Positions 37,539 through 41,779 of a DNA stretch of 64,000 nt are shown here, one piece after another (position 1 is the first letter of the stretch; each line of letters opens with the position of its first letter). A model generated the notes under the pieces. That model worked only from the letters and a program-made list of their open reading frames with translations, did no database searches and was not told the DNA's origin. The DNA comes from Squalus acanthias. Lineage: Eukaryota. The DNA lies in assembly GCA_030390025.1 (NCBI GenBank), contig CM059432.1, forward strand, positions 66,590,001 through 66,654,000, read 5' to 3'. The translations under genes and the position numbers were made by a program.

Positions 37539-40156
37539 CTATAGGGTGCTGTTCTTACAAAATGTCCATAGCACCTGCAGAACACCAGTGCAACAATGCT
37601 CAACCTGCCACCAGAGTCTTAACACAACACACAAAGTTATGTTGACGCCTCAGTTCAGCAGCTTGAATTGTTTTGGAGAGGGGAGGGTGGTATTCTCTAG
37701 AATAGTCTAATTTGAGTCTCCTAAATAAATCGTAGTGTGCTATATACTGCACAATTTCACACTCCAAAGAGGCCTCATCATGGAGCATCAGAGGAGGAAG
37801 ATGACCTTCGGCAGCAAGTAGAGTGGGAGCTGACTGCAAGGTATGTTCTTAATCAGCTGATCAAGGAGACCTCAAAACAACAACAGCTACCCACTGCATG
37901 AACAGCATTGACTACATCTATCTCCTTATTGCAACTCCTGCCAACCCAGACTGTACTGCATGCTCCAAAGTCACACAACTCTCTCATGCCATCTCATCCA
38001 AAACACTCCTCAAACTAATAAAACCTTCACTTTATACCCACCAACTTAGGATCAACGGAATATATTGGACCAAAAATGCCATAACTTTGGCGGGAGTCCA
38101 CCTGAAAATAGGACCCAGATATGCTGCATCCCAGCGGCAGGACAAGGTTGCTGGGATCGCTCACCCCTACATGGTCATCGACATAGAGGGTGGGAAAAGG
38201 AAGTTCCCACGGCTCAGGCCCCAGTTGTGACTTGGTATTGGGTCAGCGCAGGTACACCTGGTTGTACCGTGCCTACAGGGATAGACGTGGGGACCACTTG
38301 GTGGTCCATTCCTGGACTGGGGCTGGAGCCCTGCAAATGAGGACTGCAATTTTTTTTTTAAATCACAAGTGACTTCTGGGGGCAACCTTCTCCTTTCTGG
38401 CGATGGTGGGGTCCAGGGTCTATTCTCAGCTTGGCAGGCTTAATTTTCAGCTTCTAATGGGGAGGTGCCCCAGTTGCACCTCTAAAACAACAAAGACTAA
38501 TCATTGCCCCACCCCTGACCTTGCAGACATCGGCAACAGATAATGTGGGTAGTTGGGCAAATTCTGGCACTTGTGCTACGATGCAACCTCTCTGCAGATT
38601 TTCTATGCCATTATCTTCATCCACCATTCCACCCCCGCCATTCCCCTGTTCTTGCGTCTGCTAGAACCTCCTCTGGCCATTACTTCCAAGTCTGCTGAAT
38701 GCAAATAGCAACAGGGACAGGGTTTGCATTCCCATCAGATTCTCCTAATGTGCGTCGTATTACCATGTGAAAGGTACTGGTAAGCCCCAGGAAGTGACAG
38801 TAAGGGCCCTGAGGTCCCCAAATGGAGGGAGAGGATGTGAAACCGAGAGAAAGGCCGCGATTTCCCCAACCTCGGCGGGTCCGGTGCAACCGGCGTCGGT
38901 GGTGGGTCCCGACCTCGCTGCTGGCTCCAGCCCACTCTGTAGAATAATTTTACATTAAATGCGCTTGTTAAGCCCGCCCAGCGCATTTGCTGGCCAATTG
39001 AAGGAAGCGGGTCTGATGACCTCACTTGATGACGTGTTGTCAGCCGGTTTCCTTAAAGGAACAATGCACAAATTGATTTTGACAGTTGTGCTGTCAGTGT
39101 TCTACAGCATTGAAGTGCTGCAAACACTGACAAGCATTGCACAGAAGTGCACGGCTGCACCCAGGCTCTCCCATGACTCCCTCCATTTGCTTATGGAGGG
39201 AGTCACAGCACGCAGGGAGGTTCTCTTCCCTTCCAATGGGTGAAAGAGACCGCCCCAGGAGATCAACACAGCCTGGTTACACATTGCACAGGAGGGCACA
39301 AGCAGGGATGTCGTCAGGAGGACCAGGCTGCAGTGGCGCAAATCTTTCAATGATCTCAGTAGATCATGAAACGTTACTGCAAAGCCACACTCAACCTCAC
39401 CTTGCTGTGCCACTCATCACATCCCCATCACGCTGCCTTCCCTACCCTACTCCTGCACATCTTTACTCACACCAACTTACCTTGCACCTCCACCCATCTC
39501 TCTCTAGCTACATTATCACTTCCCCATCTCACGAGCCACCCCTCACACTCACCCTCATCCTTGTCCAATCATACCAACTAACAACACACAAGGGTAGGCA
39601 CTTGTGTGTTTTAGCCAATGTTCATGTGAAGTTTCTGTTAATGTGCTGTCAAACATTGAAATCTTTATTCTCAAGACGTTACGTTCTTGGACAGATTTGT
39701 GTGCACCTTTGAAAGTGTCTTAGTGAGTTGCAGTGAATTTTGAGACATAACGATACCGTCCCCGCAATGGTGATGAGTGTGAAAGGAATGGCTTGGGTAT
39801 TGTAGGGATGCTTTATGGTGTTGGTGTGCGGTGGTGCCAGCCTGGCGCATCATGTGGCACCCAGTGGTGTACAGCGTCAAGTGAAGTAAATCTGCCTATG
39901 ATGAGGCCATCCCTGGAGTGCAGCAATGTGGTCAGGTGCTGATGCCCTGTGTCCTGTGCAGCATCAGGTTATTGCGGAGAAGGTTGGTGTTGTTGTTGGT
40001 GCTGCTGGTGTGCCTGGTGCTGCTGGTGTTGGGGCTGATCATGGTGGGATTCTGAGGACCAAGGTGAGATCGTTTCAAGGTCACCAATGCTGATGTAATA
40101 GATAAAAATGAGAAGTCGCACAACACCAGGTTATAGTCCAACAGATTTATTTAATT

Positions 40157-40194
40157 TTACAAGCTTTCGGAGCTGTCGCTCCTTCGTCAGGTAA
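40157..40194 (-). ncRNA. Minimal type I hammerhead ribozyme motif (mirror copy)
   Basis: Exact reverse complement of 40204-40241. Confidence 0.75.
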
Positions 40195-40203
40195 GTTGCT
40201 AAC

Positions 40204-40241
40204 TTACCTGACGAAGGAGCGACAGCTCCGAAAGCTTGTAA
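40204..40241 (+). ncRNA. Minimal type I hammerhead ribozyme motif
   Basis: TTAC-CTGACGA-A-GGAGC-GACA-GCTCC-GAAA-GC-TT-GTAA; intact core, CUU triplet. Confidence 0.78.
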
Positions 40242-41779
40242 AATTAAATAAATCTGTTGGACTATAACCTGGTGTTGTGCGACTTCTCATTTTTGTCCAC
40301 CCCAGTCCAACGCCGGCATCTCCACATCATGTAATAGATGGCAGGTGAAGTTGAGATGATAGAAGCGATCTGTCAATGGTGAGAGAGGTTGTTCCAATGA
40401 GGTGATACTGGATACAGAGTTTACTCCAAACACTTGCAACTTGCATAAAGCTCAATCTGTCTTCCAAATGCAGTAAGCAACAGCTTCTGAGCTTGGAAAG
40501 TGAACAGCTGTGAGATGGGAGCTTTTATAGCACATTTGCAGCTGTCAAGTGAAGAGATCATTTCATGGTAACACAACTCCCGACCTGCTTACCTGACGTG
40601 ATCCCCGAGCAGCGTGGACCCCGTGGGCGACCTCGTAAAATTTAAACGTGAGCTTAAAATACTTTTTAAGTGGCTCTTAACAAGGTCATAATGACTTAAA
40701 TTACTTCAACTGCCGCTGCGTGTCGGGTCTATTCAGTGTTGACAGGCTTGATATCTGGGAAAGTCACGTGGTGGCGGGTTGACATCGGGTTCCCAACCCG
40801 CTGTCAAAAAATAAATGTTCCCGCCCGACCCGCCACTGAACGCGCCTGCTGACCCCCTGAAAAATTCCCTCCCAAAAATTTAAAAGACATCTCGGGCACC
40901 CCATAATTCCAGGTTTCCCGTCCATAACTCCTCCACCCCCCACCCCCTGTACCGAACGCGCAGCCCCATGAATATCGGGGCCAATGTCTGCAACTGTGCC
41001 TGCAGCTTCACATGCACTAGGATGCTCTGTATTAGGGATAAACCTTTCCTTGTGGTGCTGCTTAGGATGGCAGTGGACTGATGCACTACCCCTAACATCT
41101 GCACATGGGGAGACTATCCACACTGCTTGCACATGTGCTGTTCATCAAGCATTCTTTGAACAGGATGTCATAATTCAAGGGAAAATTGCCATTGTGGGTG
41201 CTCCCCACCCAACCTCAGCGGTCTGAACATCTTTGTAGAGGAAACAATGGAATGCCTGGAAGGCCCGCAGCAGAGAACGTCAAGGCTGGAGAAATAAAAG
41301 GGGACTGCACGCTACCCATCTGAGGACTGAGGTCTCCCGAGTCTTCATTTATGCACCTCAGACATCTAGTCCCCTTTCCTCTTGTTCACTCGTGCACCAG
41401 GCTTCACCTGTACAATCTCCTCATTTCAGCTATCTATTTTCCCCAGGTGGATCTGGCTGGGCTGGTGACTGGCAGCTTATCACATGAGTAAGCATATTCT
41501 GGTATGGACTGAAGCAGATCTGTAAGATATTTTCCTCCTCCTCCACTTCTTGCTGTTCTCAGAGGACAAGTGGAAAATTAAAGTGTTTGGCAGACAAATA
41601 AACAAGTCCTTTTGAGTTTCAGCAGCAGGAATTACAAGGCTGCTTGGATGGTGTTACTTGTGGAGCACAAGATGGAACAGCAACAGGATGGCAGGATGAA
41701 CCTACAGCTGGCAGACAGCTGCCATCAAATGATGAGCACAAGCGCTGCATCAACAATTACATTTTTGTTTATTTGTTAG

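What the first reader, a model, noticed from the sequence alone, without database searches (positions are those of the whole stretch)
40104..40328. Mobile 225-bp perfect fold-back element with mirror-image hammerhead ribozymes
Seen: 94-bp arms with no mismatches, a 3-nt loop, a 34-bp unpaired tail and an 11-bp TSD, with no coding capacity. Each arm holds a complete minimal hammerhead core, so either strand would carry one. Established: Penelope-like elements carry minimal type I hammerheads in their pseudo-LTRs and can form inverted-repeat copies with a short asymmetric tail. Inference: this is either a recurrent hairpin by-product of Penelope second-strand priming or a self-propagating hairpin retro-element. 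A read-through transcript would form a 94-bp dsRNA that masks the ribozyme and could feed Dicer or ADAR.
Basis: partly seen in the sequence, partly recalled or inferred. Interest (0 to 1): 0.8.

Follow-up and report, generated by a model that had tools for sequence, protein, structure and literature searches.

The report
Truncated Penelope retroelement fold-back insertion
This 225-base hairpin is real: it is the shortened end of an abundant Penelope-like jumping gene in a shark-type genome, present as two head-to-head copies plus a short tail, a layout already described for these elements, and it was likely made anew at insertion rather than spreading as a hairpin.

Summary
In detail: 94-bp perfect arms, 3-nt loop, 11-bp target duplication, and an empty-site paralogue of the flank. 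The tail is 34-37 nt. The arm is the 3' terminal repeat (pLTR) of an endonuclease-positive Penelope-like element: another window copy links it to an ORF end 89% identical to a shark protein with a reverse transcriptase domain. The window holds four insertions of the family (40, 208, 225, 511 bp), each with its own 10-14-bp duplication; two are hairpins, with different centres. In one public DNA run, depth beside this fold-back point is about one copy's worth against millions on the arm (55% read, possibly another species). The minimal hammerhead is real and covaries, but each strand carries only one sense copy, predicted to be masked by about 65 kcal/mol. Inverted pLTR plus tail plus duplication is the published Penelope layout. 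Verdict: a likely dead-on-arrival insertion, not a new mobile class. Earlier notes of this scan reached the same reading on other DNA. Open: both hairpins fold back at the hammerhead's 5' edge. Cleavage and transcription untested.

The parts
40093..40103 (+). Left target-site duplication (11 bp, 82% AT)
   Evidence: single copy in the empty paralogue
40104..40197 (-). Inverted, 5'-truncated pLTR arm (94 bp) without tail; its outer end lies within 5 nt of where the non-inverted copies c3 and c4 end
40157..40194 (-). Minimal type I hammerhead motif, sense on the minus strand
40198..40200 (.). 3-nt loop at the head-to-head junction; unlike the normal upstream pLTR sequence, likely non-templated
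   Evidence: upstream sequence in c3 and loose ends before 40206
40201..40294 (+). Direct, 5'-truncated pLTR arm (94 bp)
40204..40241 (+). Minimal type I hammerhead: stem I 40204-07/40238-41, core 40208-14, extra A, stem II 40216-20/40225-29, GAAA 40230-33, palindromic AGCT in place of helix III, predicted cut after 40237 (U at position 17)
40256..40263 (+). Conserved box predicted to pair (8 bp) with 40304-40311 in the tail
   Evidence: paired in 4 of 4 rows that have both sides; no two-sided change
40295..40331 (+). One-sided tail, 34 nt to 40328; 36-37 nt if the ATG shared with the right duplication is element-derived
40329..40339 (+). Right target-site duplication
38844..40634 (.). Host repeat interrupted by the insertion; 86-88% identical to window 327-1874; likely Harbinger-derived (inferred)
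12708..12915 (-). c2: second fold-back copy of the family, different centre, shortened tail, 14-bp duplication; arms differ at 6 of 90 columns, all in the inner 20
45703..46213 (+). c3: 511-bp 5'-truncated copy with the last 57 codons of the GIY-YIG domain, 3' UTR and pLTR; no tail, no inversion, 12-bp duplication
34837..34876 (-). c4: 40-bp stub of the same 3' end; no tail, no inversion, 10-bp duplication

Best explanation
The element is a severely 5'-truncated, non-coding insertion of an endonuclease-positive Penelope-like retrotransposon whose hairpin likely formed anew during this one integration event. Shown: the arm is the family's 3' terminal repeat with its minimal hammerhead; copies end at one of two fixed points (start or end of the tail) and carry 10-14-bp duplications. 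Inferred mechanism: the element's protein likely nicked both strands of AT-rich DNA 11 bp apart; one 3' end would prime reverse transcription at the far end of the tail (3-nt match), the other at the near end; both copies would stop just past the hammerhead and be joined head to head with a few non-templated letters. I put about 0.5 on this two-nick priming and 0.35 on snap-back copying; both are within the 0.85. The hammerheads are passengers: one sense copy per strand, predicted to be buried in the 94-bp duplex.
For: Family link to RT and GIY-YIG: c3 joins the same pLTR to an ORF end 89% identical to P0002 (RVT_1 E 5e-9); its relative P0006 passes the GIY-YIG cut-off (25 vs 22.6 bits). 4 of 4 window copies have their own duplication, a shared 3' end and a different 5' end; 2 of 4 are inverted. 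The inverted arms of c1 and c2 start within 5 nt of the 3' ends of plain copies c3 and c4. c1 and c2 differ in centre and at 9 columns, while each hairpin's outer arms match each other. Run X1: summed depth 1.0-8.6 million on the arm, 620-720 at 40176-40191, 21.6 at 40168-40175, where locus-specific joint contigs have depth 10-28. Literature: inverted pLTR + 31-bp tail + 9-bp duplication in Adineta (PMC3846280, passages and Discussion); the same layout as general in PMC8557442 (passages); two RT start sites bracketing the tail, with both strands nicked and extended in vitro (PMC11167929, main text); opposite-strand min-HHR pairs 100-700 bp apart (PMC4209133, Results).
Against: One 83-nt X1 contig spans a similar fold-back with a different centre at depth 181, about eight single-copy units, so some junctions may be shared. 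Only about 55% of X1 was read, only 8 of its 11,384 laid pieces were listed, and its organism holds 0.52 of the stretch's sampled words, so it may be another species. Only two hairpins could be compared base by base. Both have nearly symmetric centres, which independent stops do not explain easily and snap-back does. PMC11167929 reports priming without homology, whereas c1 shows 2-3-nt matches at both ends (c3 and c4 show none). No full-length element was in hand.
Confidence: 0.85

Rival explanations
1. Same origin, different step: one cDNA started at the tail end, stopped past the hammerhead, folded back on a few added letters and copied itself; the copy was then cut or captured 34 nt short of the start. 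(Counted inside the 0.85.)
For: c1 arms are identical and end at the same base; the c2 centre is symmetric within about 4 nt; each hairpin's outer arms share subfamily letters. PMC3846280 (Discussion) reads junction palindromes as self-priming.
Against: It needs a separate reason why the copy ends exactly where plain copies c3 and c4 end. The inner 20 nt of c2 differ at 6 columns, so copying would have been error-prone or later decayed.
Confidence: 0.35
2. The hairpin itself is a non-autonomous element that is transcribed and re-inserted by Penelope protein, keeping its loop.
For: It keeps the tail and box thought to be needed for priming; perfect arms imply youth; both window hairpins have nearly the same arm length; one fold-back contig in X1 has depth 181.
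Against: c1 and c2 have different centres and subfamily letters; plain copies share the same ends; total depth on the first 8 bases of the laid stretch is one copy's worth, 10^5-fold below the arm; the predicted 94-bp duplex also buries the conserved box that would pair with the tail.
Confidence: 0.08
3. Assembly artefact, or a later replication-type inverted duplication of a plain insertion.
For: Perfect palindromes are a known sequencing and assembly artefact (own knowledge); same-individual reads were not available.
Against: The duplication encloses both arms and the empty site is exact; the tail is on one side only; c2 repeats the layout with imperfect arms; an independent run holds a similar fold-back contig.
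Confidence: 0.04
4. A host-selected hairpin RNA (siRNA, miRNA or ADAR substrate) that restrains the family.
For: Very stable predicted duplex; Penelope copies give antisense-biased small RNAs in Adineta (PMC3846280, Discussion).
Against: It sits inside another repeat, with no sign of conservation at this locus; the Rfam miRNA matches are far below their gathering scores (best 45 vs 93 bits) and reflect any long hairpin.
Confidence: 0.03

Closest known systems
Complex insertion units of EN+ Penelope-like elements, e.g. Pen2a_Av/Pen2_Av of Adineta vaga (PMC3846280, passages and Discussion read) and the general scheme in PMC8557442 Fig. 2 legend (passages read)
   Same: Direct pLTR with adjacent inverted 5'-truncated pLTR, head to head; one-sided tail of 30-40 bp; short variable duplication around the whole unit.
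   Different: Here truncation removed all coding sequence, leaving only 94-bp arms with a 3-nt loop; the fold-back lies at the 5' edge of the hammerhead in 2 of 2 hairpins. I saw no such statement in the passages read.
PAc (Poseidon of Anolis carolinensis), PMC11167929 (main text read; supplements not read)
   Same: Two fixed 3' ends bracketing a tail, AT-rich targets, hammerhead in the pLTR.
   Different: The nearest protein here (P0002) has a CX4CxxC linker, the mark of Neptune/Nematis rather than Poseidon (PMC8557442). That paper does not treat inverted copies (one unrelated use of 'inverted').
Minimal type I hammerheads of metazoan PLEs, PMC4209133 (Results and Discussion read)
   Same: Core, extra base between 9 and 10.1, G10.1-C11.1 pair, palindromic 15.2-16.2, 4-5-bp helix I, no helix III.
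   Different: Helix II is 5 bp (7-8 bp in Schistosoma); position 17 is U in c1, c3, L001, L002 and C in c2; activity untested.
Non-LTR retrozymes (10.64898/2026.07.22.740005, first fifth and passages read)
   Same: Short, non-coding, pLTR-derived, hammerhead-bearing.
   Different: Retrozymes are head-to-tail tandems with two or more same-strand hammerheads; this unit is head-to-head with one per strand.

Membership tests
EN+ Penelope-like element | Family ORF with RT and C-terminal GIY-YIG endonuclease | tested here: met
   Not in this copy. c3 links the pLTR to the ORF end; P0002 (89%) has RVT_1; P0006 passes the GIY-YIG cut-off; 3 of 7 proteins scanned hit GIY-YIG, 1 above cut-off
EN+ Penelope-like element | 5' truncation with fixed 3' ends | tested here: met
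   4 of 4 window copies, 40-511 bp
EN+ Penelope-like element | Inverted 5'-truncated copy adjoining the 5' end | tested here: met
   c1 and c2; absent in c3 and c4, so optional as described
EN+ Penelope-like element | One-sided 30-40-bp tail | tested here: met
   34-37 nt in c1
EN+ Penelope-like element | Variable-length duplication at AT-rich targets | tested here: met
   10, 11, 12, 14 bp; 64-83% AT against 53% in the window; n = 4
EN+ Penelope-like element | Full-length copies in partial tandem forming pLTRs | not testable with these tools
   No genome held; no full-length locus retrieved
Neptune/Nematis clade | CX2-5CxxC motif between RT and EN | tested here: met
   Present in P0002, P0007, P0008, P0016, P0019; seen in homologues only; no tree was built
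Minimal type I hammerhead | Core, extra base after A9, G10.1-C11.1, palindromic 15.2-16.2 | tested here: met
Minimal type I hammerhead | Helices I and II kept by compensatory changes | tested here: met
   6 rows; 4 of 9 hammerhead pairs change on both sides; 0 of 500 shuffles reach the covariation score; slid controls 28-38% paired against 99%. Few rows; structure named by me from c1
Minimal type I hammerhead | Self-cleavage as a dimer | not testable with these tools
   Needs an in vitro assay; PMC4209133 reports none for monomers and low activity for dimers
Non-LTR retrozyme | Head-to-tail tandem with two or more same-strand hammerheads | tested here: not met
   One sense motif per strand
MITE / foldback DNA transposon | Inverted repeats at both termini and a fixed-length duplication (definition partly recalled) | tested here: not met
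   Right end is the unpaired tail; duplication varies 10-14 bp; arms are a retroelement 3' end
Self-propagating hairpin retro-element (proposed) | Same loop at many loci | tested here: inconclusive
   Different in 2 of 2 window hairpins; about single-copy depth in X1, but 55% read, species uncertain, and one other junction at depth 181

The most novel reading that the evidence does not exclude
Some of these fold-back units are themselves templates: the hammerhead's 5' edge fixes where reverse transcription turns back, giving a standard-length hairpin that Penelope protein can re-insert with its loop intact, a non-autonomous palindromic retro-element. A weaker form, that the hammerhead edge is only a hot spot for fold-back (2 of 2 hairpins here turn 3-7 nt upstream of the core), I put at about 0.3 and interest 0.45.
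Probability: 0.08. Interest if true: 0.65.

Novelty: new member of a known kind. Interest (0 to 1): 0.2.

Why it matters
As a single locus it is ordinary. As a class, such young, minimal insertions are clean records of the unsolved Penelope integration step: thousands of them in one genome could decide between two-nick priming and snap-back copying, and test whether the hammerhead sets the turning point. If transcribed, they would be a ready source of double-stranded RNA against the family, but nothing here shows transcription of this locus.

Tried and rejected
No whole genome is held, so the genome-wide loop table could not be made. Exact-pattern scans of viral, prokaryote-genome and metagenome contigs found 0 loci each. 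Rfam: 0 matches at gathering score in the window; 10 sub-threshold matches near the locus, none a hammerhead. Pfam on the 58-aa c3 fragment alone was uninformative. Sequencing runs: no RNA holder listed; X15 is RNA only by guess, so it is not used for or against expression. Raw-read runs were nearly empty: X21 11 reads, X22 0. A protein-level link of the host flank to the ORF at 56076-56606 was not obtained (in an uninformative frame; tblastn gave no hit), so the Harbinger label rests on 69-76% DNA similarity near a DDE_Tnp_4 ORF. Lunse et al. 2016 (PMC5785218) is not held; I know it only through passages of PMC6765202. Co-folding two monomers gave cross-paired stem II rather than the active dimer; not informative. 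Rejected: MITE, retrozyme, miRNA gene. A donor-like GTAAGT on the antisense arm was set aside because c2 and c3 lack it. Seven literature searches listed no paper on a self-propagating Penelope hairpin; only listings were seen for most hits and subscription journals are not covered. Supplements were not read; those of PMC11167929 (Fig. S2) and PMC4209133 may show such copies.

Full report
Observation. The description is accurate. Arms 40104-40197 and 40201-40294 are exact reverse complements over 94 bp, with a GCT loop, 34 unpaired bases and an 11-bp direct repeat on both sides. No other perfect inverted repeat with arms of 15 bp or more and a spacer up to 12 exists in the window. The flanks belong to a repeat with a paralogue at 327-1874 that carries the 11-mer once and no insert; loose ends before 40329 in runs X1 and X15 likewise match the left flank. 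The longest ATG frame inside is 28 codons.

Surroundings. The window is repeat-rich animal DNA with many reverse-transcriptase fragments and DDE_Tnp_4 fragments (2 of 3 ORFs scanned). The arm occurs at three more places. c2 (12708-12915, minus strand) is a second hairpin with a 14-bp duplication. c3 (45703-46213) has a 12-bp duplication, no inversion and no tail, and begins with 57 codons of an ORF end. c4 (34837-34876) is a 40-bp stub with a 10-bp duplication. All share the 3' end: either just before the tail (c3, c4 and both inverted arms, within 5 nt) or at the tail's end (direct arms of c1 and c2). The four targets are 64-83% AT against 53% for the window.

Family. The c3 peptide finds 23 proteins among 26 candidates; the named ones are all from sharks, the best full one (P0002, 643 aa) at 89%. 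P0002 has an RVT_1 domain; 3 of 7 proteins scanned hit GIY-YIG, one above the cut-off. The alignment shows a CX4CxxC linker before the nuclease, which PMC8557442 (passages) assigns to Neptune and Nematis, not Poseidon; I built no tree. Two distant metagenome loci (2 of 246 pattern matches) show the same order: ORF end, hammerhead, conserved box, tail-like segment, without inversion. The arm is therefore the pLTR end of an endonuclease-positive Penelope-like element.

Hammerhead. A minimal-hammerhead descriptor hits four times in the window (c1 once per strand, c2's inverted arm, and an unrelated motif at 4392) and never in 30 Markov controls. c3 and c2's tail arm fail it through core changes. 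Across six rows, 4 of 9 hammerhead pairs change on both sides and no shuffle of 500 reaches the covariation score; the rows are few and I named the structure from c1. Position 17 is U in c1, c3, L001 and L002. PMC4209133 (Results and Discussion) reports that such motifs do not cleave as monomers, cleave weakly as dimers, and also occur as opposite-strand pairs 100-700 bp apart. A transcript through c1 has one sense motif, and forcing its fold costs about 65 kcal/mol on either strand. So the motif is real but likely silent here. PMC11167929 found cleavage unnecessary for insertion in vitro.

Shared or unique loop. c1 and c2 have different centres and differ at 9 columns, whereas each hairpin's outer arms agree. 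I laid four runs on 40168-40407. In X1 (11,384 contig pieces laid, about 55% of the run read) summed depth is 1.0-8.6 million on the arm, 1.2-1.9 million on the tail, 12,412 at 40192-99, 620-720 at 40176-91 and 21.6 at 40168-75. Contigs with locus-specific joints have depth 10-28, so the last figure is about one copy. It could be this very junction, but no listed piece shows that. Against my reading: an 83-nt contig crosses a similar fold-back with another centre (3 other letters, 9 gaps) at depth 181. Summed depth is not a copy number, a shared junction would collapse into few contigs that might lie in the unread 45%, and X1's organism may be another species. The test favours formation anew but is not decisive. 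The same call shows family copies ending at 40330-40331, so the tail is 34-37 nt and the right end has a 2-3-nt match with the target.

Mechanism. Shown: pLTR identity, two fixed 3' ends, variable 5' ends, staggered duplications. From literature: the anole protein nicks and extends both strands and starts reverse transcription at two sites that bracket the tail (PMC11167929); inverted pLTR plus tail plus duplication is the typical unit (PMC3846280; PMC8557442; PMC8969392; D. virilis 34-bp repeat in PMC2377424, passages). Inferred: each nick primed one copy, one from each start site, both stopped just past the hammerhead, and the ends were joined head to head. This explains why the inverted arm starts where plain copies end. 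Snap-back copying explains the symmetric centre better and is the reading of PMC3846280. A mixture is possible. I give 0.5 and 0.35.

Unexplained. Both hairpins turn 3-7 nt upstream of the hammerhead core, although plain copies stop at 40 and 511 bp; n = 2. The six differences between c2's arms all lie in the inner 20 nt. An 8-bp pairing between the conserved box and the tail is possible in all four rows that have both (no two-sided change) and would enclose the near 3' end; it may be the protein's recognition element (inference).

Earlier notes of this scan (unchecked AI notes) give the same reading for other loci in this and other genomes; none matched this sequence or window. I had stated my reading before seeing them, and do not count them as support.

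Verdict. A real, young, tidy example of a described Penelope insertion layout. New member of a known kind; interest 0.2. Self-propagation is not excluded (0.08). Ribozyme activity, transcription and same-individual reads remain untested.

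Noticed in passing
window:4380-4425 (+): A second, unrelated minimal hammerhead motif (5-bp stem II, 4-bp stem I, different palindrome), single copy in the window; probably another Penelope-like family.
   Followed up: partly
window:12805-12845: c2's arms differ at 6 of 90 columns, all within the inner 20 nt, and its centre repeats a 5-letter piece of the adjacent arm; may reflect error-prone joining or two templates.
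   Followed up: partly
window:40256-40263 with 40304-40311; L001:1029-1081; L002:934-989: A conserved box can pair with the tail in all four tail-bearing rows, including two distant relatives; candidate recognition helix around the near start site.
   Followed up: partly
window:40288-40332, run X1: Three single-copy-depth contigs join a tail-less arm end to the same position (within 3 nt) of the host repeat, suggesting repeated insertion at this site in other copies of that repeat; only 22-24 letters on the short side.
   Followed up: no
protein list: Several named shark gene isoforms (XRCC5 X2, PPP1R12A-like X3, septin 5a X1, FAM204A X2) contain this Penelope nuclease end, either exonisation or annotation error.
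   Followed up: no
L002:490-1010: A Penelope 3' end sits between stretches that look bacterial in a marine metagenome contig; likely a chimeric contig, not checked.
   Followed up: no
window:15785-21200 and 26725-29043: A GC-rich Tx1-like LINE region and a nearly intact RTE-like ORF2 (519 + 252 aa pieces); family labels recalled from the translations, not tested.
   Followed up: no
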